Positions 3,705 to 53,000 of a stretch of DNA of 64,000 nucleotides are shown in pieces. The notes under the pieces were generated by a model. That model was not told the origin of the DNA and did no database searches. It saw nothing but the letters and a program-made list of their open reading frames with translations. The stretch is from assembly GCA_963838315.1 (NCBI GenBank), contig CAWIQW010000021.1, positions 72,561 through 136,560 on the forward strand. Reading direction: 5' to 3'. The first letter of the stretch is position 1; each line of letters opens with the position of its first letter. A program made the translations under genes and the position numbers. The DNA comes from an uncultured Acidobacteriaceae bacterium (GTDB lineage: Bacteria; Acidobacteriota; Terriglobia; Terriglobales; Acidobacteriaceae).

Positions 3705-4658
3705 ATGACGACGCGACGCGCTCTGGTAACCGGCGGTTCGGGCTTTCTCGGCTCGCATCTGTGCGACGGCCTGCTGGGGGAGGGGTACCGCGTTCTGGCG
3801 GCTGACAATCTGCTCACCGGCCGCCTCGAGAATATTGCCCATCTGCGAAACGACGCGCGCTTCGAGTTCATCGAGAAAGATGTTTGCGAGCCGGCTGAAT
3901 GGGGATCGCTCGACTACGTTTTTCACTTCGCCAGTCCAGCCAGCCCGGTCGATTACGCGAAGCATGGGATCGAAACCCTGCGGGTCGGTTCGTACGGAAC
4001 ATTTCAGGCACTTGAGGCGGCTCGCCGGGCGGGCGCGCGGTTCATGATGGCCTCGACCTCCGAGTGCTACGGGGACCCGCTCGTGCATCCGCAACCGGAG
4101 TCGTATTGGGGAAACGTGAATCCGATAGGACCGCGCTCGGTGTATGACGAAGCGAAGCGGTTCTCGGAGGCTGTGACTGCGGCGTTTCATCGCTATCACA
4201 ATGTGGATACGCGGATTCTGCGCATCTTCAACACCTATGGCCCGCGCATGCAGATTCAGGACGGCCGCGTGATTCCGAACTTCATGTGGCAGGCGCTTCG
4301 CGGAGAAGATTTGACCGTGTACGGCGACGGCAGCCAGACGCGTAGTTTCTGCTATGTGAGCGATGAAGTGGACGGGATTCTGCGCCTGGCCCGTGCGGAA
4401 GAACACGCGCCGACGAACATTGGAAATCCCACGGAGTTCACGATTCTGGAGTGCGCGCGCAAAGTGATTGCGGTGACCGGATCGCGGAGCCAGATCAAAT
4501 TTGAAGCCTTGCCGCAGGACGATCCGAGGCAGCGTCGTCCCGACATCAGCAAGGCAAAGCGGTTGCTGGGGTGGGAGCCAAAGATAGATCTGCAGACCGG
4601 GTTGGAGCTTTCCCTGGAATACTTTCGCGGGGCTGTGCTGGGAAAAAAGACGCCGTAG
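3705..4658 (+). CDS. uxs: UDP-glucuronate decarboxylase (UDP-xylose synthase), extended SDR
   Basis: [12 protein letters not shown] Rossmann motif, the YDEAKR catalytic Tyr-x3-Lys, and a UXS-like sequence throughout. It starts 5 nt after the ugd stop. Confidence 0.88.
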
Positions 4659-4693
4659 CGCTCACCGGGTCTCCTGTTGCGCTGCGAGGCAGC

Positions 4694-5869
4694 TTAGCTG
4701 GATTGTTCGGCGTGGGTTCCGTCCGAAGAGACCAACGCCAGCAGCTTGAGAATTTCTTCGCGCTCCGCGGGGTCTCGGAAATTGAAGCGCACCCCCATAC
4801 CGAATCCCGGATGCGAACTCAGTACCTGTCCCTTGAGCCTGAATTTCATGTCGGCGGTGCGAATCACAATCTCAACCGCGGAACGCGCCGGAAATGGCGA
4901 CGGCATCTCGACGTAGCAACCGCCTTCACTGATGTCGGACAGCGAGCAGCGGTTCGGGATGCTGACTCCGGCGCAATAGACTTCCGCGCCTACCTTGCAG
5001 GGCAAGCGCTCTCCCTTGCGGCGGTTGTTGTCATTCGTTTCATCCGGACCGGCCGTGTCCGACTGCTCGGCAGGCTCTTTGGAGTGCTCTTCCAGGCTGA
5101 TGGGGGTGGTGATGATCTGGGTTTCCAACTCCAGCTCAGGCGCGGCGTGCCGCTCGGGTTCGCGCTCCCTGGACGGCTCCAGTTCGGCGTTTGGCGCCGG
5201 ACCATATTGCTCGAGCCAGCCTTGGATGAGGCGCTTGGAAGCCTGGGGCACGTCGATGAAGCGAACTCCGGTGCGACCAGAAAAATCCTGCCAGGCAACC
5301 TCGCCCGCCAGGCGAACCACCTGCTTCTGGCCGGGAAGGGCGAATTCGAAATAGACCTTGCGGGCATCGGGCAAGCCGTTGCGGGTAGTAATCAACGTCC
5401 CGTCCCTGCTGATGTCAACCATGGTGACGTTCACATCGGCAGCGCCTGCGTAGGAAACCTTGGCGGTGGAAATCACACCAGTTCGCGCAGAGCGGCGGCG
5501 TTCGCGGCGCATCAGGCTGCGGGCGGCGTGCAGGCTGAGCCGCGTGCGTTCCGAAGTGAGGGGCCTGTACAGCACGAAATTGGCGCCCAAGCCGAAGATG
5601 GGCCGCGGGTTATACTCGGCGTCCACCACGGCAATAAGCATGGTGGAGCGGTTTTTGAAGGAGCGGCACAAATGCCCGAGGAATTCCTCCGAGGCGGGGT
5701 CGCCGCGGTAGTCAATCACTACCGCATCAAACTGATGCTCGTCGAGGAGTTCCATTCCACGAGAGATGGAGGCCGTGTACTCCACTTCCATGCGCATCTC
5801 TGACAGGATTGCCTTCAACAGCTTGGCAGGCTCTTGATCCGGGCACACCAGGAGTATCTGCAGGTCCAT
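4694..5869 (-). CDS. response-regulator receiver fused to two PilZ domains
   Basis: REC-like N-terminus (MDLQILLVCPDQ..AVVIDY). Two PilZ signatures: RRERR...DISRDG and RKGER...DISEGG. ATG at 5869 is preferred over the TTG at 5905. Confidence 0.8.
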   Translation of the reverse strand: MDLQILLVCPDQEPAKLLKAILSEMRMEVEYTASISRGMELLDEHQFDAVVIDYRGDPASEEFLGHLCRSFKNRSTMLIAVVDAEYNPRPIFGLGANFVLYRPLTSERTRLSLHAARSLMRRERRRSARTGVISTAKVSYAGAADVNVTMVDISRDGTLITTRNGLPDARKVYFEFALPGQKQVVRLAGEVAWQDFSGRTGVRFIDVPQASKRLIQGWLEQYGPAPNAELEPSREREPERHAAPELELETQIITTPISLEEHSKEPAEQSDTAGPDETNDNNRRKGERLPCKVGAEVYCAGVSIPNRCSLSDISEGGCYVEMPSPFPARSAVEIVIRTADMKFRLKGQVLSSHPGFGMGVRFNFRDPAEREEILKLLALVSSDGTHAEQSS

Positions 5870-6044
5870 AATTGCGATCCTATGAGAGACGCGGAACCTC
5901 GACAAGTTACTGGCGTCACAACAAAACTTCGGTCATCTGGAGTACGTGAACAATCGCGGATAAGATTAAGGAGCGCTGAGAAATTGCCGGTCAGCGCGAC
6001 CGGCACGATCAGTTGTGACCGATTTTTGCCCTGAAAAGAGTGCC

Positions 6045-6443
6045 ATGAAAACTGCAAGCTGGCTGATCGGATTTGGATGCTGCGTTGCCCTGGTCGGCCT
6101 ATGCTTTCTGCCGGCAGCGTTTGGTTCCCACCCGGATTCCGCGATGCTTAGTGCGGGCGCGATGCTATTTTCCGCGGGAATGGTGATGGCGGCCGGCGGC
6201 TTCTATGTTAAAGCGCGCTATCTGTCGCCGGGCGGCGTGCCCGCTCCCAAAGCCACCAAGAAGGCCGCCAAGAAAGTCTGCAAGATGTGCAAGCGGGAAG
6301 CGGTGATTCAGTGCCGTCCACATCAGATGCCGTTGTGCGCAGACTGCCTGGGCAAACATTTCGACTTCCGCGCCTGCTGCTATATGCCCTTGGAACGGCC
6401 GGCCTCGGAGACAAAAGCGCGGTCGCAAACGACGGGCGCGTGA
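6045..6443 (+). CDS. membrane-anchored Cys-rich (B-box-like zinc finger) protein
   Basis: Two N-terminal TM helices, then CKMCKREAVIQCRPHQMPLCADCLGKHFDFRACC. ATG at 6045. Confidence 0.5.
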   Translation: MKTASWLIGFGCCVALVGLCFLPAAFGSHPDSAMLSAGAMLFSAGMVMAAGGFYVKARYLSPGGVPAPKATKKAAKKVCKMCKREAVIQCRPHQMPLCADCLGKHFDFRACCYMPLERPASETKARSQTTGA

Positions 6444-6591: not shown

Positions 6592-7827
6592 GTGCCGCGA
6601 ACAACCAACAACCCCTGGCTGGCTCTGCTGTTGTCTATCTCCGCCCTGGCATCGCTCTCCTTACTCCTGATCCCGGGATTCATAATCCGTCCCTTCCGGT
6701 ACCAGAGTAAGAACGCGCTGTCGCTCGCCATCGACGTGAAATGGATCGCACCATCTTTCACGCTGATCCTCTCCATTGTTGCGCTCCTGCTGGCGGTGCG
6801 ACTGTGGCGGAGATCCGGCATCGCGGTACGGATATTGACAGTGCTCGCGCTGCTCGTCACCCTCGGGTCCGCAGTCATGGTGCGGCAAAACTATTTCGAA
6901 TGGATGTTCCACCCGATCACCGCGGCCGGGTTCGTTTCCGTCGACAAGGCCCAACTCCCCGACCGAGAAATGCTGATGACGGTGCAAATCGGAAGCGATG
7001 CGCGCGCCTATCCCATCGCGCGGATGGCGTATCACCACATCCTGAATGACACGGTGGGAAAAGAACCGATCGTCGTCACGTATTGAACGCTCTGTCACAC
7101 CGGTCTGGTGTGGAAACGGGTTTCCGGCGGGCGGGAGTTGCACTTCTATCTGGCTGGGATCAACAACCAGAATTTCCTGATGCGCGATCGGGAGACGGGT
7201 TCGTGGTGGCAGCAGGTGACGGGGCGGGCAATTTCGGGACCGCTGGCGGGAAGCGCGCTTGAATTACAGGCCAACGACGAACTCACGTTCGGAATGTGGA
7301 AGGCGGAATCGCCCAATGGGCTGGTGCTGGCTCCGGTCGCAAATCACGAAAAAGACTATGACGAAGAGTGGGAAAAAGAAGTCGCGAAGCTCCCGGTGCC
7401 GCTGACGTTTCCGGGCCAGGGCTTGGGGGATCGCGACGTGGTGCTCGGGATCGCGCTGGCTGGGCAGGAGAGAGCGTATCCGCTGGCGCGAGTGCGCGGA
7501 GCCACTCCGATCGAAGATCGCGTCGGAGGCGTTCCCCTCGTGCTGGTCACTGGTCCGGATGGCGAGTCCGTTCGAATATTCCGCTCGCAATGGAACGGAA
7601 CCGAGATTGAACTTTATCGTGATACAGACAATCTCGATGCGGACCATCGCACGGCCAAGGGAGTTTCCTGGCAACTGGTCGATTCGCAGGGAAACACCTG
7701 GAATTTTGCGGGATGTGCAACCAGCGGCGCTGCCCAGGGACAGTGCCTGGAAAGGATCAACTACCTCAAAGATTACTGGTTCGACTGGAAGAACTATCAC
7801 CCGCAAACGACAGTCTACAGCCGCTGA
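6592..7827 (+). CDS. DUF3179-family membrane protein interrupted by a single in-frame TGA (7084..7086); candidate Sec codon or nonsense mutation
   Basis: ORFs 6592..7086 and 7108..7827 share a frame. Read-through gives PIVVTY-[TGA]-TLCHTGLVW...FLMRDRETGSWWQQVTGRAISGPLAG, which matches the DUF3179 core (YCPLC...D.eTgS.W.Q.tG.a..G.l.G) as I remember it. Confidence 0.6.
7096..7112 (+). other. SECIS-like hairpin CACACC-GGUCU-GGUGUG
   Basis: Perfect 6-bp stem. The loop starts 15 nt after the UGA and contains GGUC, as in the E. coli fdhF SECIS apical loop (from memory). Confidence 0.35.
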
Positions 7828-7848
7828 AGTGCGGGGACCATTCGCTGC

Positions 7849-8517
7849 CTAGCGAATGCTGAACCGAACACGCGCTTCGGAATCTGTGGGCACTCCGTTG
7901 CACAGCGCGGGACGGTAACGCCACTGGCGAACCGCGCGCAATACGGCTTCATCATCGCCGGAGCCGGCGCCATCCAGCACGAAGGCGCTGTGCACGAATC
8001 CGTCGGAGCCCACAATGAAACTGACGCGCACCAGCAGAGCCTGATCTTCAACCGGCAAGAGCGGGTCAGGAGTAAGCAGGGGTTCCGGTGGAACCACGCT
8101 GCCGCATTTGGGCAACGCCAGCGGTTCCGAAAATGGAGTGAACTCGGAGATGTGAGCGGGAACACGGCGCAGTCCGCTTTCCGCCTGCGGAAGCGAAGCG
8201 CGGCTGGGATTGACTCGCAACGGCTTTGCAGCCGAACACCAGGCAGCAACCCCGGCTAGCGACAGAAGCAACAGGAAGAGCACGAGCCTTCGATGCCCGT
8301 ATCCTCCGTTCGATCTTCCGCGGCTGGGGGAGTCCAAAGTTGGGTCCTTTTGTGTTCGGTCATAGACACCAGATCCCCTTTGCCTTGGCAATTTGACCGC
8401 CAGTTCTGTCAAGTTTGTAAGTGCTTGAACGCTATGACGGTTATTTCCGCTTCTAAACTTACGCCTGGATGGAGACTGCAATTGATTGCGAATGACCTGA
8501 AGGCGCGCGACATACAT
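7849..8517 (-). CDS. TonB C-terminal-domain protein
   Basis: C-terminus VSFIVGSDGFVHSAFVLDGAGSGDDEAVLRAVRQWRYRPALCNGVP...RVRFSI fits TonB_C. A hydrophobic anchor RRLVLFLLLLSLAG is present. The true start is probably internal (GTG near 8290). Confidence 0.6.
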   Translation of the reverse strand: MYVARLQVIRNQLQSPSRRKFRSGNNRHSVQALTNLTELAVKLPRQRGSGVYDRTQKDPTLDSPSRGRSNGGYGHRRLVLFLLLLSLAGVAAWCSAAKPLRVNPSRASLPQAESGLRRVPAHISEFTPFSEPLALPKCGSVVPPEPLLTPDPLLPVEDQALLVRVSFIVGSDGFVHSAFVLDGAGSGDDEAVLRAVRQWRYRPALCNGVPTDSEARVRFSIR

Positions 8518-12631: not shown

Positions 12632-14029
12632 CTAGGCGTGTCCTCCGCCAAGCTCGCGCACAATACTGCCTACGAAGGCTTTCGCGTCTCCGAAGAGCAT
12701 GAGGTTGTTATCCAGGTAATAGAGCGGGTTATCGATTCCGGCAAACCCGGGATTCATGCTGCGCTTGATGACCATGACGGTGTGCGCCTTATCGACGTCG
12801 AGAATGGGCATGCCGTAAATGGGGCTGGAAGCATCGGATCGGGCAGCGGGATTGGTAACGTCGTTGGCGCCGATGACCAGCGCGACATCGGTTTGCGGGA
12901 AGTCGCCGTTGATCTCATCCATCTCGATGAGCCGGTCATAAGGAATGTCCGCTTCGGCCAGGAGCACATTCATGTGTCCGGGCATACGGCCGGCAACGGG
13001 ATGGATCGCGAAGCGGACATCGACGCCACGCTTGGTCAAAGCGTCGTAAAGTTCGCGTACCTTGTGCTGCGCCTGCGCCACAGCCATGCCATACCCCGGA
13101 ACCACGATCACGCGGTTCGCGGCCGATAGAATCGCAGCCGCTTCTTCGGGCGTCGCGCTGCGCACCGGCTTCGCTTCTTCTCCGGCGGCGGCTGCCGCCT
13201 GCACCTGCCCGAACGCTCCAAACAAGACGTTGGTGAAGGACCGATTCATGGCCTTCGACATGATGATCGAGAGGATGAGTCCCGAGGAACCATCGAGCGC
13301 GCCGGCGATGATCAGCAACTTGCTGTCGAGCACGAAGCCCATGGCCGCGGCTGAAAGTCCGGCATAGCCGTTCAACAGCGAAATGACGGTGGGCATATCG
13401 GCTCCCCCGATCGGGATGATCAGCAGCACGCCGAATGCAAGTGCGATCAGAACCATGAACGGAAACAAAGAACGGTGTTCAGGGTGCACCACGAGCGTCA
13501 CGGCAATCACTAAAGCAACGGCAAGCAGCAAAAAGTTGACGAGGTTCTGTCCCTTATAAGTCAGGGGACGCTGCGGCAGGATCTCCTGTAGCTTGCCGGC
13601 CGCCATCAGGCTGCCCGTCACGGTCAGGCCACCGAGGATGACCTCAATCGAGAGCACGGACATCATGAAGCGCGAAATGTCGGGGGTGCGCAGATAAAAT
13701 TCCGCCGACCCGACCAGCGTGACGCAGAGCGCTCCGAAGGCATGGCTAAGGGCGGTTCGCTGGGGGACCGCGGTCATGGCGACGCGGCCGAGCGGCACTC
13801 CGATGATCGCACCGAGCACAAGCGCAATCGCGATCATGCGGTAGTCATGCAGGCCGTTGCGCAGAAGAGTGCCGACAATCGCCAGCAGCATGCCGGATTC
13901 CCCGGCCCAGATGCCGTGGCGCGCCGTGGTGGGCGAACTCATCCATTTCAGCGAGAGTATGAACAAAACGCTCGCGATCAGATACAGAATTTCAATGGCG
14001 ACTTGACTGCCTGCGAATTCAGGACTCAT
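12632..14029 (-). CDS. pntB: NAD(P) transhydrogenase subunit beta
   Basis: Polytopic N-terminal half plus a C-terminal NADP(H)-binding domain (VPGYGMAVAQAQH...GANDVTNPAA). Its ATG overlaps the stop of the upstream gene. Confidence 0.93.
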   Translation of the reverse strand: MSPEFAGSQVAIEILYLIASVLFILSLKWMSSPTTARHGIWAGESGMLLAIVGTLLRNGLHDYRMIAIALVLGAIIGVPLGRVAMTAVPQRTALSHAFGALCVTLVGSAEFYLRTPDISRFMMSVLSIEVILGGLTVTGSLMAAGKLQEILPQRPLTYKGQNLVNFLLLAVALVIAVTLVVHPEHRSLFPFMVLIALAFGVLLIIPIGGADMPTVISLLNGYAGLSAAAMGFVLDSKLLIIAGALDGSSGLILSIIMSKAMNRSFTNVLFGAFGQVQAAAAAGEEAKPVRSATPEEAAAILSAANRVIVVPGYGMAVAQAQHKVRELYDALTKRGVDVRFAIHPVAGRMPGHMNVLLAEADIPYDRLIEMDEINGDFPQTDVALVIGANDVTNPAARSDASSPIYGMPILDVDKAHTVMVIKRSMNPGFAGIDNPLYYLDNNLMLFGDAKAFVGSIVRELGGGHA

Positions 14030-14331
14030 GATTTGGCCGCGGGACGGCTGGATTTGAACATCTTCAACATACGATCGGTAATCAGGAAACCGCCCACGAT
14101 ATTGCTGGTGGCAGCGACCACCGCGATGAAACCGAAGATGGCGGCCAGTTGGCTCTTGTGCTCGCCCACCAGCACGATCGCGCCGACCACGGCAATCGCA
14201 TCCAGAGCATTGGTGAGAGACATCAGCGGCGTGTGGAGGAGCGGCGATACGCGCCGGATCACCTCGAAGCCGATAAATCCGGCCAGCACGAAAATGAAAA
14301 GTGCGTTAATCAGGTTCGAACTGCTGTTCAT
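14026..14331 (-). CDS. pntA: NAD(P) transhydrogenase subunit alpha part 2 (membrane)
   Basis: 101 aa with three TM helices. It is PntAB-like and sits between pntAA and pntB. Confidence 0.9.
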   Translation of the reverse strand: MNSSSNLINALFIFVLAGFIGFEVIRRVSPLLHTPLMSLTNALDAIAVVGAIVLVGEHKSQLAAIFGFIAVVAATSNIVGGFLITDRMLKMFKSSRPAAKS

Positions 14332-14382
14332 CTTTACTCTTTCCTCCGTTTGAAACTTCCGACGTCCTTCGCGAACACGTCT

Positions 14383-15555
14383 TCAGCCTTGCGTGGCCAA
14401 CGCGGGTAGTTTGAATAGCTCGCGTACCCGCGGTTGCTGAATTTCGCCGCCGCTGGTAACCAGAGTCTCACGCACAATTTCGTCCTCCAGATTCAGATTC
14501 ATCTTCTGATCCTTAATAAGGTGCGTAAGGAACGACGTGATATTTCGGGAGTACATCATGCTCGCGTGATAAGGCACACCACTGGCCAGGTTGATGGCGC
14601 CAACGATGGTCACTCCGTGTTTGACTGAAGTCTTACCAGCTTCGGTAATGTCGCAGTTGCCGCCGCGTTCGGCGGCCAGGTCGACAATCACGGAGCCCAG
14701 CGCCATGCCCTTCACCATCTCCTCGGTAACGAGGATGGGCGCTTTTTTACCGGGGATGACGGCGGTGGTAATAACCACGTCGCTCTCCTGCACAACCTTC
14801 CCGAGCAACTCGCGCTGGCGGCGGTAGAAATCTTCATCCTGCGCGCGGGCATATCCGCGGGCATCCTGAGCATCTTTCGCCTCAATCGGCAGTTCGACGA
14901 AGCGACCGCCCAAACTCTGTACCTGCTCCTTGGCCGCCGGCCGCAGGTCGTAGGCGGAAATCACCGCTCCCAGACGGCGTGCGGTCGCCAAAGCCTGCAA
15001 TCCCGCCACGCCACAGCCGATCACAAACACGCGCGCGGGCGTCACCGTACCAGCCGCGGTGGTAAGCATCGGAAAGATGCGCGGGTGTGAGTCGGCGGCC
15101 ATCAGCACGGCCTTGTATCCACAGACGGTTGCCATGGAGGAAAGCGCGTCCATGCTCTGCGCGCGGGTGGTGCGAGGCATCAACTCCACGGAAAACGAGG
15201 TGACTCCGGCCTGCGCGATCGCCTGCACGGTTTCCAGCGAGCCAAACGGGCGGAGAAACCCGACGAGTATCTGATTCCGCCGGTACAACGGAACATCCTG
15301 CTGTCCGTTGACATCATTGGAGCCGTAGCAAAGCACCTGCGCGATGATGTCGGCGGCGGCAAACACGGCAGCCCGATCCGCGACAATCTTGCCGCCTTTC
15401 TCGACATAGAGGGAATCGGGATAGCCGGCTTCGAGTCCGGCGCCCGATTGAATATGAATTTCAAACCCGGCTTTGGTCAGCGTCGGAAGAATCGACGGCA
15501 CCAGAGCAACCCGCCGCTCGCCTGGATAAATCTCTTTTGGAATACCAATGATCAC
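14383..15555 (-). CDS. pntA: NAD(P) transhydrogenase subunit alpha part 1 (AlaDH-like dI domain)
   Basis: MIIGIPKEIYPGERRVAL... and the VIGCGVAGLQA Rossmann motif. GTG start. Confidence 0.92.
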   Translation of the reverse strand: MIIGIPKEIYPGERRVALVPSILPTLTKAGFEIHIQSGAGLEAGYPDSLYVEKGGKIVADRAAVFAAADIIAQVLCYGSNDVNGQQDVPLYRRNQILVGFLRPFGSLETVQAIAQAGVTSFSVELMPRTTRAQSMDALSSMATVCGYKAVLMAADSHPRIFPMLTTAAGTVTPARVFVIGCGVAGLQALATARRLGAVISAYDLRPAAKEQVQSLGGRFVELPIEAKDAQDARGYARAQDEDFYRRQRELLGKVVQESDVVITTAVIPGKKAPILVTEEMVKGMALGSVIVDLAAERGGNCDITEAGKTSVKHGVTIVGAINLASGVPYHASMMYSRNITSFLTHLIKDQKMNLNLEDEIVRETLVTSGGEIQQPRVRELFKLPALATQG

Positions 15556-16418: not shown

Positions 16419-16494
16419 TGGTGAGCGCGGCAGGAATCGAACCTGCGACCCACGCCTTAAAAGGGCGTTGCTCTACCAACTGAGCTACGCGCCC
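16419..16494 (-). tRNA. tRNA-Lys (anticodon UUU)
   Basis: The reverse complement folds as a cloverleaf. Acceptor GGGCGCG/CGCGCTC, D-arm GCTCAGTTGGTAGAGC, anticodon loop CTTTTAA, T-arm GCAGGTTCGATTCCTGC. The CCA end is encoded. Confidence 0.93.
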
Positions 16495-50010: not shown

Positions 50011-53000
50011 CTACTTCCCTTCCGGTACGTAGATTGCAGGCACATTCAACTTATTCACAGTCTCATTCAGCGCCACCAGATCCTTGGCCATCAGTTCGCG
50101 CGACTGCGCAAGCAAAGGTTGCGCCTGCTTTTGCAGTTCGTCGTAAACCTCAAGTTGCTGTTGCGTGGGCGCGGCATCCGCCGAATCCACGCTGAAGAGC
50201 AGCGAGTGCAAGCGCTCGTCGATGTGCACGGGATAGTTCAGATTCGCCTCCGAACTCTTCGCGTTGACTTGCAATAGCTGCGACTCCAGATCGAGGCTCT
50301 TTTTGTCGACCTCCCGGGCCGCCGAAATAAATGAAGCGTAACGTGAGTCGTCGCCGAAGCGTTTCGTGAGCGTGTGGATTTGCGAACGCACATCGCGGAT
50401 CCTCCCGATCGCCTCATGAATCTCCGAAACCTGCATCACGATCTTGCCTGCCAATTCCGCCTGCTTCTGCAAATCCTCGTTCGACACCTTCACGCGCGCA
50501 TCGACTTTGAGTTCCAGCGGCGCAGTGTACGACTTGCCGTCCACAGTAAGCCGTACCTGGTACGCACCGGGAAGCACCATGAAGCCGCGGTTGCGGAACT
50601 CGGCTCCTGGTTCGCCCGCCATCGGAACTGGCCCTTGCGAGCGCAGATCCCATGCAAAACGGTTCAGGCCCGCGCTCGCCGGAATCTTCGTCTCCGGCGG
50701 AGTCTGGTCGGGCCATTCGGGCGGCGAGTCGGCTTCTTTCTTTTCTTCGTTCGAGAAGTGGCGCACCAATTTGCCCTGGGCGTCGAGAATATCCAGATCG
50801 ACGACTCCTTTGGGCGCGGACGGGAGATAGTAGTACACAATCGCGCCACTAGGCGGATTCTGTCCCACCGGTTGGCGGCGCTCGTAGAAATCGGGCCAGC
50901 GCATGCGATAGGTCACTCGCGGCTTGTAGAGCACTGCTTCGCTGGACGCTTGCGCCGTCGCGGCGCGTAGCGGAGTAATGTCATCGAGAATCCAGAAAGC
51001 CCGGCCATGGGTCGCGACCACCAGATCGTCATTCTTCACAATCAGGTCATGGATGGGAGCGTTCGGCAAGTTCAGCTGCAGCGATTGCCAGTTCGCGCCG
51101 CCATCGAATGAAACGTAGAGACCGGTTTCCGTGCCTGCGTACAACAGGTTCTTGCGCACGGGATCTTCGCGCACCGCGTGCGTGTACGAGCCATCGGGAA
51201 TCCCGTTCGTGATCTTCGTCCACGACTTGCCGAAATCGGTCGTCTTATAAATGTACGGCCGGAAGTCGTCGAGTTTGTGCGTATCAACCGCCGCATAAGC
51301 CGTGCCTGCATCGTGCGGAGAAGCCTCAATAATGCTGACCAGGCTCCAATCCGGAATGCCCTTCGGCGTCACGTTGGCCCAGTTCTTTCCACCGTCCCGC
51401 GTGATGTGAATCAGCCCATCGTCGGTCCCCGCCCAGAGCAAGCCCTTCTGGACAGGCGACTCCGCAATGGCAAACACCGTGTCGTAGTATTCGACCGAGG
51501 TATTGTCCTTGGTGAGCGGTCCGCCGGACGAAACCTGCTTGCTCTTATCATTGCGCGTCAGGTCGGGACTGATCGCCTGCCACGTCTTGCCCTGGTCTGT
51601 CGTCTTGAAGACACGCTCCGCGGTGGTGTAAATCACGTGCGGATCGTTGGGCGAGATGAGGATCGGCTGCGTCCACCCCAGACGGTACCTCATGTCTCCG
51701 ACGCCGTGGCCAGCAGCATCCATCGGCCACACCGTGACGTCCTGTTCCTGGTTGCTGTGGCGATCAAGGCGCGTTACGGCGCCCCCTCCCGATCCCGCAT
51801 AAATAATGTCCGCGTCCTCCGGATCGGGCTGAATATAGCCGCTTTCGCCGCCACCCGCGTCAAACCAGTGCTGGCGGCCGATATATCCATCGTCGGCGCG
51901 GCTCGCGATCCCGATCGTTGAATTGTCCTGTTGCGCGCCGTACACGTCATAGAGGAACCGGTTGTCGGCGGCTACGTGGTAGAACTGCGCCGTGGGCTGG
52001 TTGTATTGCGTGGACCAGCTCTTCCCGCCATCCACCGAAATCGTCGCGCCCCCATCGTTTCCATTGATCATGCGATTCGGATTCTGCGGATCGATCCAGA
52101 ATCCGTGATGATCGCCATGCGGAGCCGGCAGAAGACTCAGGCTTTTCCCGCCGTCGCTGGAGCGAAAAGCCCCCGTATTCAGGATGTAGACGGTATCGAT
52201 GCTCTTCGGGTCAGCAAATATGTGCGTAAAATACCAGGCGCGCTGCGTCATGCGCTGATCGTCGTTGACGCGCGACCAGTTCCCACCCCCATCATCGGAG
52301 CGGTAAAGGCCGCTCTCCTTAGACTCGATGAGCGCATACACGCGGTTGGAATCGCCGCCCGAAACGCTTACTCCGATGCGCCCCAGAATGCCTTCCGGCA
52401 GGCCGTTGCCTTCGAGATGCTTCCACGTATTGCCGCCGTCGGTTGAGCGATACAGTCCGCTGCCCGGCCCGCCGCTTTCCAGACTCCAGGGCGTGCGCTG
52501 AATCTGATAAAGCGCGGCAAACATCACGTTCGGATTGTGCGGATCGACGCTCAGGTCGATCGCTCCGGTCTTATCGTCTTTGTAGAGGATCTTGTCCCAC
52601 GTCTTGCCGCCATCGGTTGTCCGATAAACACCGCGCTCCGGATTAGGACCATAAGCGTGGCCGAGAGCTGCGACCAGCACGTGATCCGGATTGCGCGGAT
52701 CGATCCACACGCGCGCGATGTGCTGCGTGTCTTTCAGTCCGATGTGTTGCCAGGTCTTGCCGCCATCGGTGGTTTTATAAACTCCATCGCCATAGGAAAT
52801 ATTTCCGCGGAGGCACGACTCGCCGGTGCCCACGTAGATCACGTTCGGATTCGATTCCGACACCGCGATCGCGCCGATCGATGAAATGACGCTGCCATCG
52901 GAAATCGGCTGCCAGTCCACTCCCCCATCGGTCGTGCGCCACACTCCGCCCGAGACGGCGCCAAAATAGTAGGTATAGGGATTGCCGGGAACGCCGGTAA

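What the first reader, a model, noticed from the sequence alone, without database searches (positions are those of the whole stretch)
6592..7827. DUF3179 gene with one in-frame TGA at the first Cys of its CxxC motif plus a SECIS-like hairpin: candidate new selenoprotein
ORFs 6592..7086 and 7108..7827 are in the same frame and are separated only by TGA 7084..7086. Read-through gives ...KEPIVVTY-[TGA]-TLCHTGLVWKRVSGGRELHFYLAGINNQNFLMRDRETGSWWQQVTGRAISGPLAG... This matches the DUF3179 (PF11376) core as I remember it (..YCPLC......F..sG...nl.m.D.eT.S.W.Q.tG.A..G.l.G). The TGA sits where the first Cys of the CxxC pair is expected. That gives a U-x-x-C arrangement, the classic Sec/Cys redox-motif substitution seen in bacterial selenoprotein families. 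Nine nt after the TGA there is a perfect 6-bp hairpin CACACC-GGUCU-GGUGUG (7096..7112). Its loop begins 15 nt after the UGA and contains GGUC. That is close in distance and loop sequence to the E. coli fdhF SECIS apical loop (from memory). I am not aware of DUF3179 being a described selenoprotein family. The competing explanation is a simple TGC/TGT-to-TGA nonsense mutation, making this a pseudogene.
Basis: partly seen in the sequence, partly recalled or inferred. Interest (0 to 1): 0.8.

Follow-up and report, generated by a model that had tools for sequence, protein, structure and literature searches.

The report
Known-family selenoprotein gene, misannotated
The in-frame TGA is almost certainly a real selenocysteine codon in a membrane-anchored DUF3179 protein of soil Acidobacteria, but DUF3179 was already catalogued as a selenoprotein family, so this adds a large unannotated branch and not a new family.

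Summary

It is not a pseudogene:
- All 80 orthologues from Terriglobia genomes (53-74% aa identity), plus 5 more distant ones, carry TGA at this site. Both halves of the gene stay open and conserved.
- The 18 nt forming the hairpin (CAC ACC GGT CTG GTG TGG) are identical in 81/81 sequences. These are the only five of 139 conserved degenerate codons with no synonymous variation.
- Four of five Cys-form genes encoding the same or a nearly identical peptide lack the hairpin.
- In full-length homologues the site is Cys in 66 of 77 (CxxC). It aligns exactly with the Sec of the published reference DUF3179 selenoprotein.
- The hairpin meets the bacterial SECIS consensus apart from borderline spacing, and shares GGUCUG with E. 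coli fdhF.

The "new family" claim fails. Two reviews list DUF3179 (UxxC/T) as a selenoprotein family, citing Zhang & Gladyshev 2007.

Still untested: selA, selB, selC and selD are absent from this 64-kb window and the rest of the genome could not be searched. Sec use is reported in Acidobacteria. The protein's function is unknown; a weak Rieske-like fold match is only a lead.

The parts
6592..7827 (+). Complete DUF3179 selenoprotein gene: GTG start at 6592, Sec-TGA at codon 165, true stop TGA at 7825-7827. 411 codons.
   Evidence: Translation. Pfam PF11376 at E=6.7e-62. tblastn matches in 80 genomes span query residues 1-411 across the TGA. The frame is open on both sides in all orthologues.
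6616..6882 (+). Three hydrophobic segments (about residues 9-33, 51-71 and 76-97), interpreted as an N-terminal three-helix membrane anchor.
   Evidence: Kyte-Doolittle 19-residue windows peak at 2.27-2.34. The AF2 model of Cys-form homologue P0125 has three long N-terminal helices at 10-38, 47-84 and 88-108. The topology, with the domain outside the cytoplasm, is inferred and was not tested.
6916..7809 (+). DUF3179 domain (residues 109-406), built from two internally duplicated beta-rich modules. Only the first module carries the His/UxxC site.
   Evidence: Pfam match coordinates. The consensus of 40 full-length homologues shows the motif series repeated twice. AF2 secondary structure.
7033..7038 (+). 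His148-His149. His148 aligns with the only invariant His of the family (H160 in P0125), 17 residues before the Sec.
   Evidence: The invariant column list of alignment A1. The mapping to window numbering was done by hand from the aligned motif HH..ND..G..P...TY[C/U]xxC.
7084..7086 (+). Sec-encoding UGA (residue 165).
   Evidence: TGA in 80/80 orthologous loci and in 5 more divergent homologues. Cys in 66/77 full-length homologues. Aligns with the U of reference selenoprotein MDJ0986319.1.
7084..7095 (+). U-T-L-C redox or metal motif (TGA ACG CTC TGT).
   Evidence: Codons +1 to +3 vary only synonymously among 81 sequences: ACG/ACC/ACA/ACT, CTC/CTT/CTG/CTA, TGT/TGC. This stretch is therefore translated and under amino-acid selection, although it lies before the GTG at 7108 that gene callers use as a start.
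7095..7113 (+). bSECIS hairpin: 7-bp stem (7095-7101 paired with 7107-7113) and 5-nt apical loop GGUCU (7102-7106).
   Evidence: RNAalifold consensus on 81 sequences, -9.6 kcal/mol. Positions 7096-7113 are 100% identical in 81/81. The 7095 U-to-C change in 3 sequences keeps the pair, U.G becoming C-G. GGUCUG is shared with the verified fdhF SECIS.

Best explanation
Coordinates 6592-7827 hold one gene for a 410-residue membrane-anchored DUF3179 selenoprotein.

How the recoding works:
- UGA 7084-7086 is recoded as selenocysteine.
- The signal is a minimal bacterial SECIS lying inside the coding sequence just downstream: a 7-bp stem at 7095-7113 with apical loop GGUCU.
- By analogy with E. coli fdhF, this hairpin is bound by SelB·GTP·Sec-tRNASec, which delivers Sec to the ribosome paused at the UGA.

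What it produces: a U165-x-x-C168 pair in place of the family's CxxC.

What is shown and what is inferred:
- Shown: the TGA and hairpin are conserved and coupled across the clade; the flanking codons are translated; the site is a Sec/Cys pair; the position matches the catalogued DUF3179 selenoproteins.
- Inferred: SelB-dependent decoding; the presence of selABCD elsewhere in the genome; extracytoplasmic location of the domain; the role of the U-x-x-C site, possibly acting with the invariant His148, as a redox-active selenenylsulfide or a metal-binding centre.
For: 1. Conservation of the TGA. It is present at the homologous codon in 80/80 Terriglobia genomes at 53-74% aa identity and in 5 more divergent homologues at about 38-45%. 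All 120 best database hits are C-terminal fragments covering 55-58% of the query, meaning gene callers stop at the same place everywhere.

2. Both halves are under selection. There are 235-267 open codons after the TGA. Median identity to the window is 51% for the N-terminal part and 60% for the C-terminal part.

3. The stretch between the TGA and the next possible start is translated. Codons +1 to +3 show only synonymous changes.

4. RNA-level constraint.
   - Of 139 conserved degenerate codon columns, only +4 to +8 (His-Thr-Gly-Leu-Val, the hairpin) have zero codon entropy. The median elsewhere is 1.21 bits.
   - Four-fold sites are near saturation, with a median of 34% identity between the window and its orthologues.
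   - Gly +6 is GGT in 81/81, although GGT is the rarest Gly codon at most other conserved Gly columns.

5. The hairpin goes with the TGA. Cys-form genes encoding the same or a near-identical peptide (CTLCHTGL[V/I]W) use GGC CTC GTC or ATC and cannot form the hairpin, in 4 of 5 cases.

6. Divergent TGA forms keep the hairpin through compatible changes. A-U becomes G.U in L087, and the lower stem is extended in L086 and L090. The loop always begins GGU.

7. Sec/Cys pairing. Cys occupies the site in 66/77 full-length homologues, and the site aligns with the U of MDJ0986319.1.

8. Published bSECIS consensus (PMC13188914). Loop of 3-9 nt, stem of 4-16 bp, G in the first two loop positions and MFE <= -7.5 are all met.

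9. TGA is an ordinary stop codon in these genomes. About 45% of ORFs in the window end in TGA, and 24 of the 81 DUF3179 genes themselves end in TGA. A local signal is therefore needed for recoding.

10. Sec decoding is reported in Acidobacteria: PMC1794560, and Occallatibacter riparius with three selenoproteins in PMC12013277.
Against: - No selA, selB, selD or tRNA-Sec was found in the 64-kb window or in 60 of the 80 orthologous loci scanned for tRNAs. The rest of the genome could not be searched.
- No Rfam family matches the hairpin, even at E <= 10.
- The hairpin's folding energy is not exceptional against shuffles (z = -0.47).
- There are 15 nt between the UGA and the loop. That is one short of the 16-37 nt consensus if intervening bases are counted, and 18 if counted from the U.
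- The core hairpin is invariant in the 81-sequence set, so it gives no true compensatory covariation.
- One Cys-form gene (L083, a fragmentary contig) has an equivalent hairpin.
- There is no experimental evidence of selenium incorporation.
Confidence: 0.9

Rival explanations
1. Pseudogene: a TGC/TGT-to-TGA nonsense mutation inactivated a Cys-form DUF3179 gene.
For: Gene callers split or truncate the gene everywhere. No Sec machinery is present in the window.
Against: The same TGA is in 80/80 species-level genomes and in 5 more distant homologues. Both halves are intact and conserved. Codons after the TGA change only synonymously. A hairpin under strong RNA-level selection accompanies the TGA.
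Confidence: 0.01
2. Split gene: translation ends at the TGA and restarts at GTG 7108, giving a 164-aa membrane protein and a 239-aa soluble protein. The hairpin would serve coupling or re-initiation.
For: This is how every database annotates it. GTG 7108 is invariant.
Against: The seven codons between TGA and GTG 7108 (T-L-C-H-T-G-L) are conserved at the amino-acid level, with synonymous-only variation at +1 to +3. They complete the family's CxxC motif, which is continuous in Cys-form homologues. GTG 7108 is invariant because it lies inside the stem. A split would remove both residues of the family's best-conserved motif.
Confidence: 0.02
3. UGA is read through by a decoder other than Sec, for example an acidobacterial allo-tRNA suppressor or a SelC*-type tRNA-Cys with a SelB-like factor. 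That would insert Cys, Ser or another residue.
For: Mukai et al. (PMC5389517) report allo-tRNAs in Acidobacteria that may act as nonsense suppressors, and tRNASec-like tRNA-Cys in other phyla. The Sec machinery of this genome was not seen.
Against: In that paper SelC* tRNAs were found in Firmicutes, Thermodesulfobacteria, Nitrospirae and Proteobacteria, not in Acidobacteria. Many of the allo-tRNAs there are associated with toxin-antitoxin or mobile elements. The site is the catalogued Sec position of the family. The hairpin fits the SelB-type SECIS consensus and shares the fdhF loop motif. Keeping a costly UGA plus hairpin across more than 80 species merely to insert Cys is not parsimonious.
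Confidence: 0.04
4. Sequencing or assembly error in this window.
For: None specific.
Against: The identical codon occurs in 85 independently assembled sequences from many projects.
Confidence: 0.005

Closest known systems
DUF3179 domain-containing selenoprotein family (PF11376, motif UxxC/T). Listed in PMC9312934 and PMC13188914 and credited there to Zhang & Gladyshev 2007 (PMC1976440). Reference protein MDJ0986319.1.
   Same: Same Pfam family. Sec is at the same alignment column, VTF-U-PLT against VTY-U-TLC. Same UxxC/T motif class. A SECIS-like hairpin lies directly downstream of the UGA.
   Different: Only 27% identical to the reference. This one is UxxC and the reference is UxxT. It has a three-helix N-terminal anchor instead of a single signal-like hydrophobic segment. 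It belongs to a large clade in soil and peat Terriglobia that none of the three DUF3179 papers in the searchable library mentions. That clade is truncated in every database entry seen.
E. coli fdhF SECIS (the experimentally defined SelB-binding element)
   Same: A hairpin inside the coding sequence immediately 3' of the UGA. The apical loop starts GGUC and the hexamer GGUCUG is identical (the fdhF sequence was verified).
   Different: 15 nt from UGA to loop against 18 in fdhF. No conserved long lower stem: RNAalifold finds only the 7-bp upper stem. From my own knowledge, and not tested here, the fdhF upper stem has a bulged U that contributes to SelB binding, and this stem has no bulge.
Cys-form DUF3179 proteins (for example P0125, P0130, P0132)
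   Same: Same architecture (TM helices plus two modules). Same local peptide YCTLCHTGLVW, 44-51% identical over the C-terminal 246 residues.
   Different: TGC in place of TGA. In 4 of 5 cases the downstream codons (GGC CTC GTC or ATC) abolish the hairpin.
Rieske [2Fe-2S] domains (for example PetC3 5cxm, 8hn2, 1fqt)
   Same: Weak but repeated Foldseek similarity of a roughly 90-residue beta module: probability 0.9-1.0, target TM-score 0.46-0.64. The conserved His and CxxC(H) are spaced somewhat like the Rieske ligand boxes.
   Different: No hit reaches E <= 0.001. The Pfam Rieske family is not matched. The ligand pattern is H-x16-[C/U]xxC-H and not CxH...CxxH. Which residues superimpose could not be checked.

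Membership tests
Pfam PF11376 (DUF3179) | Score above the curated gathering threshold across the domain | tested here: met
   210 bits against a cut-off of 27, E=6.7e-62, profile positions 7-292 of 292.
DUF3179 selenoprotein family (UxxC/T) | In-frame TGA aligned with a conserved Cys in homologues (a Sec/Cys pair) | tested here: met
   Cys in 66/77 full-length representatives, within a CxxC motif.
DUF3179 selenoprotein family (UxxC/T) | Sec at the same position as in catalogued members | tested here: met
   The BLASTP alignment to MDJ0986319.1 places residue 165 on its U (E=2e-31). The reference sequence comes from the PMC12013277 supplement.
DUF3179 selenoprotein family (UxxC/T) | TGA conserved in orthologues, with both flanks under purifying selection | tested here: met
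   80/80 orthologues plus 5 distant homologues. Flanks open and conserved. Synonymous-only change at codons +1 to +3.
DUF3179 selenoprotein family (UxxC/T) | Sec-decoding machinery (selA, selB, selC, selD) in the same genome | not testable with these tools
   Absent from the 64-kb window. Phylum-level support comes only from the literature.
DUF3179 selenoprotein family (UxxC/T) | Selenium actually incorporated at the site | not testable with these tools
   This needs 75Se labelling or mass spectrometry.
Bacterial SECIS consensus (bSECISearch model as given in PMC13188914, Fig. 2 legend) | Apical loop of 3-9 nt and upper stem of 4-16 bp | tested here: met
   Loop GGUCU is 5 nt and the stem is 6-7 bp.
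Bacterial SECIS consensus (bSECISearch model as given in PMC13188914, Fig. 2 legend) | At least one G in the first two loop positions, mostly G followed by G or U | tested here: met
   The loop begins GGU in all 86 TGA-type sequences.
Bacterial SECIS consensus (bSECISearch model as given in PMC13188914, Fig. 2 legend) | [quoted passage not shown] | tested here: inconclusive
   There are 15 intervening nt (7087-7101), or 18 counted from the U of UGA. The counting convention was not stated in the text read. fdhF has 18 intervening nt.
Bacterial SECIS consensus (bSECISearch model as given in PMC13188914, Fig. 2 legend) | Minimum free energy <= -7.5 kcal/mol | tested here: met
   -7.7 for the 6-bp hairpin alone, -9.5 for the 7-bp form and -13.6 for UGA+45 nt.
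Rfam SECIS families | A covariance-model hit | tested here: not met
   No SECIS family matched at E <= 10 on 7040-7200. From my own knowledge, Rfam's bacterial SECIS models are lineage-specific, so this says little.
Rieske [2Fe-2S] domain | Sequence-family match and the CxH...CxxH ligand boxes | tested here: not met
   Pfam finds only DUF3179 at E <= 0.01. The motif is HH-x15-[U/C]xxCH. The structural similarity is weak, with E >= 0.015.

The most novel reading that the evidence does not exclude
Each DUF3179 module may be a diverged Rieske-type beta fold. In the first module, the invariant His148 with U165-x-x-C168(-H169) would form an extracytoplasmic metal or iron-sulfur-like centre. In that case this widespread Terriglobia clade would carry a selenocysteine-ligated metal site in a protein family that has no assigned function.
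Probability: 0.15. Interest if true: 0.55.

Novelty: new member of a known kind. Interest (0 to 1): 0.3.

Why it matters
- **Annotation.** One gene is recorded as a truncated fragment in every related database entry seen: all 120 best hits, and many 50%-identity clusters. The same error therefore probably affects a great many Terriglobia genomes and soil metagenomes. Those organisms' use of selenium is undercounted as a result.
- **A test case for SECIS recognition.** The element is very small (7 bp plus GGUCU), is frozen across more than 80 species, and sits entirely within six codons. That makes it a clean natural minimal bSECIS for studying SelB recognition outside Proteobacteria and Firmicutes.
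- **No new family or mechanism.** DUF3179 has been catalogued as a selenoprotein family since 2007.

Tried and rejected
- **Rfam.** At gathering thresholds on the whole window, and at E <= 10 on 7040-7200, nothing was found except a tRNA and a chance CRISPR-DR hit.
- **NCBIfam.** No model matched.
- **PDB by sequence.** No hit at E <= 1.
- **Sec machinery in the window.**
  - ARAGORN finds only tRNA-Lys and tRNA-Arg.
  - A Pfam scan of 30 ORFs, including all those of SelA, SelB or SelD size, finds none of them.
  - tblastn with a Treponema SelD and two Occallatibacter selenoproteins against the window and all loci gives no hits.
  - No tRNA-Sec was found in 60 orthologous loci.
- **A second selenoprotein in the window.**
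  - The same-frame TGA between 14383..15555 and 14026..14331 on the minus strand is only the pntAA/pntAB gene boundary.
  - A scan of every TGA with at least 60 open codons on both sides plus a SECIS-like hairpin gave only off-frame noise.
  - The GGUNU-loop hairpin after an in-frame TGA occurs only at the DUF3179 site in the 644 kb of sequence held.
- **Operon context.** The only recurrent neighbour is a convergent TonB_C gene, in 52 of 80 loci, so there is no functional clue.
- **The search of protein representatives.** It was then run on the C-terminal 246 residues.
- **P0193.** This is the homologue with 'W' at the site; it could not be traced to a contig.
- **Literature.** A search for 'Sulfotelmatobacter' with 'selenocysteine' found nothing.
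Full report
**1. The observation**

- ORFs 6592..7086 and 7108..7827 share a frame, and TGA 7084-7086 is the only interruption.
- Read-through gives ...KEPIVVTY-U-TLCHTGLVWKR....
- With Cys substituted at the TGA, the 411-residue product matches Pfam PF11376 (DUF3179) at E=6.7e-62, 210 bits against a cut-off of 27, over residues 109-406.
- The hairpin CACACC/GGUCU/GGUGUG lies at 7096-7112, 9 nt after the TGA, and its loop starts after 15 intervening nt.

**2. It is not a pseudogene or an error**

- The 120 best hits among 5.8 billion proteins are all 227-256 aa and cover only the C-terminal 55-58% of the query. Gene callers stop at the same point everywhere.
- I fetched 80 orthologous loci from species-representative genomes. 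All are Terriglobia/Acidobacteriaceae/Ca. Sulfotelmatobacter-type MAGs, apart from two odd bin labels, and they are 53-74% identical.
- All 80 have TGA at the homologous codon, in the invariant context TY-U-TLC-HTGLVW.
- The frame is open for 235-267 codons after the TGA. Both halves are conserved, with median identity to the window of 51% for the N-terminal part and 60% for the C-terminal part.
- Five further homologues at about 38-45% identity also have TGA there.
- TGA is otherwise a normal stop codon in these genomes. About 45% of the window's ORFs end in TGA, as do 24 of the 81 DUF3179 genes themselves.

**3. The stretch after the TGA is translated**

Codons +1 to +3 (Thr-Leu-Cys) lie before GTG 7108, the start that annotators use. 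Across 81 sequences they vary only synonymously: ACG/ACC/ACA/ACT, CTC/CTT/CTG/CTA and TGT/TGC. This argues against a split gene that re-initiates at 7108.

**4. The hairpin is under RNA-level selection and goes with the TGA**

- The 18 nt CAC ACC GGT CTG GTG TGG (7096-7113) are identical in 81/81 sequences.
- Of 139 codon columns with a conserved, degenerate amino acid, only the five hairpin codons (+4 to +8) have zero codon entropy.
- The next lowest columns are -1 (TAT in 80/81), +3 (TGT in 78/81), and then 0.34 bits. The median elsewhere is 1.21 bits.
- Four-fold sites are only 34% identical (median) between the window and its orthologues, so synonymous sites are close to saturation.
- Gly +6 is GGT in 81/81, although GGT is the rarest Gly codon at most other conserved Gly columns.
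- RNAalifold returns one conserved structure, a 7-bp stem (7095-7101 with 7107-7113) and loop GGUCU.
- The three sequences with TGC instead of TGT change the basal U.G pair to C-G.

Controls with Cys-form genes that encode the same or nearly the same peptide, CTLCHTGL(V/I)W:
- Four of five use CAC AC(A/C) GGC CTC (GTC/ATC) TGG and cannot form the hairpin.
- The fifth, L083, is a fragmentary 2-kb contig. It forms an equivalent hairpin with a swapped closing pair (ACG...CTC) and loop GGCCU. This may be a relic SECIS after a Sec-to-Cys change, or it may be chance. I could not tell which.

The more divergent TGA forms keep the element with structure-compatible changes:
- CAC becomes CGC in L087, so A-U becomes G.U.
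- L086 has one internal mismatch, offset by a longer lower stem.
- L090 has 8 bp.
- The loop always begins GGU.

**5. Comparison with the SECIS definition**

The published bacterial consensus (PMC13188914, Fig. 2 legend) has four requirements:

| Requirement | This hairpin |
|---|---|
| Loop of 3-9 nt | Met (5 nt) |
| Stem of 4-16 bp | Met (6-7 bp) |
| G in the first two loop positions | Met (GG) |
| MFE <= -7.5 kcal/mol | Met (-7.7 to -13.6) |
| 16-37 nt from UGA to loop | Borderline (15 intervening nt, or 18 from the U) |

- The E. coli fdhF SECIS, which I verified against 5,419 of 5,426 E. coli genomes, shares the hexamer GGUCUG at its apical loop and has 18 intervening nt.
- Rfam has no matching family.
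- The folding energy alone is unremarkable (z = -0.47). The case rests on comparative evidence.

**6. Sec/Cys pairing and family membership**

- A full HMMER scan of 1.84 billion representatives found 4,749 relatives.
- Among the 77 listed representatives whose alignment covers the site, the residue aligned to the TGA is Cys in 66, within CxxC. It is Ser in 8, and one entry has 'W', probably a TGA read as Trp.
- The closest Cys forms read YCTLCHTGLVW.
- The reference DUF3179 selenoprotein used in the recent catalogues is MDJ0986319.1, with ...IAVTF-U-PLTQTG.... It aligns to the window protein at E=2e-31, with its U exactly on residue 165.

**7. Novelty**

[quoted passage not shown] They cite Zhang & Gladyshev 2007, the Olavius symbiont metagenome study (PMC1976440).
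- What is not in those papers is this large Terriglobia clade. 'Acidobacteri*' does not appear in either review.
- The one acidobacterium analysed by deep-Sep, Occallatibacter riparius, has the AhpD-like, deiodinase-like and FdhA selenoproteins, but no DUF3179.
- This is therefore a new, unannotated branch of a known selenoprotein family.

**8. The Sec machinery is the main gap**

- The window has no tRNA-Sec, selA, selB or selD, and neither do the short orthologous loci. That is expected for 64 kb out of a genome that is probably about 5 Mb (two orthologue-bearing chromosomes are 5.4-5.5 Mb).
- I could not search the rest of any of these genomes.
- Support comes from the literature:
  - Sec decoding with 3 families and 4 selenoproteins in Acidobacteria (PMC1794560).
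  - O. riparius listed as a Sec user (PMC12013277).
  - Sec-containing hydrogenases from Acidobacteriota MAGs (PMC13582414).
- Mukai et al. (PMC5389517) describe suppressor-like allo-tRNAs in Acidobacteria. I keep non-Sec decoding as a low-probability rival.

**9. What the protein may do (inference)**

- Hydropathy shows three N-terminal transmembrane segments.
- An AF2 model of the Cys-form homologue P0125 (pLDDT 94.5, pTM 0.90) shows three N-terminal helices followed by two beta-rich modules.
- The 40-sequence consensus shows the two modules are an internal duplication. Only the first carries the invariant His (window H148) and the CxxC.
- Foldseek against the PDB gives no hit at E <= 0.001. 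Rieske [2Fe-2S] domains nevertheless dominate the top of the list: 5cxm_A at E=0.015 with target TM-score 0.64, then 8hn2, 3gce, 1fqt, CntA and TPADO.
- I read this only as a lead. The U/CxxC site, with the conserved His, may be a redox-active pair or a metal site on a domain outside the cytoplasm.
- Gene neighbourhood gives no help. The only recurrent neighbour is a convergent TonB_C gene, in 52/80 loci.

**10. Verdict**

- It is a genuine selenoprotein gene with a minimal, deeply conserved SECIS (confidence about 0.9).
- The family is already known, so the finding is of modest interest.
- Its value lies in correcting annotation and in providing a clean natural minimal SECIS.

Noticed in passing
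window 12632-15555 (- strand): This is a pntAA / pntAB / pntB transhydrogenase cluster. The 390-aa and 101-aa ORFs share a frame and are separated by a TGA, which looks like a second interrupted gene. It is in fact the ordinary pntAA stop followed by the small membrane subunit pntAB (MNSSSN...).
   Followed up: yes
window 7839-7858: A perfect 8-bp hairpin, CATTCGCT-GCCT-AGCGAATG, lies 11 nt after the DUF3179 stop codon, between it and the convergent TonB_C gene (7849-8517, - strand). It may be a shared terminator, although it has no T-run and the terminator scan did not call it.
   Followed up: partly
L083 (metagenome contig, Cys-form DUF3179), codons after TGC: This Cys-form gene keeps a 7-bp hairpin equivalent to the SECIS, with a compensatory closing pair (ACC/CTG becomes ACG/CTC) and loop GGCCU. 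The gene is called in two pieces on a 2-kb contig. It could be a fossil SECIS after a Sec-to-Cys conversion, or it could be chance.
   Followed up: partly
AF2 model of P0125 and alignment A1; corresponds to window 6916-7809: The DUF3179 domain is an internal duplication of a module of roughly 130 residues. The best PDB fold matches are weak but repeatedly Rieske [2Fe-2S] domains. Only the first module keeps the invariant His and the CxxC.
   Followed up: partly
L056 and L065 (genome-contig loci): Two MAGs are labelled Candidatus Deferrimicrobiaceae and Verrucomicrobiia, yet they carry the same TGA-type gene and the identical hairpin at 55-56% identity, like the Terriglobia loci. This suggests mis-binned contigs or horizontal transfer.
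   Followed up: no
P0193 (113-aa database protein): This entry reads TY-W-TLCHTGLVW. The TGA was probably translated as Trp by a gene caller using a TGA=Trp genetic code. No contig could be retrieved for it.
   Followed up: partly
window 7852-8517 (- strand): A TonB_C-domain protein convergent with the DUF3179 gene is the only neighbour that recurs, in 52 of 80 orthologous loci. The two ORFs upstream (4571-5803 and 6015-6443) have no Pfam match and are poorly conserved in position.
   Followed up: partly
window 16419-16494 (-) and 51584-51658 (+): tRNA-Lys(UUU) and tRNA-Arg(GCG) are the only tRNAs in the window. Rfam confirmed only the first at its gathering threshold.
   Followed up: no
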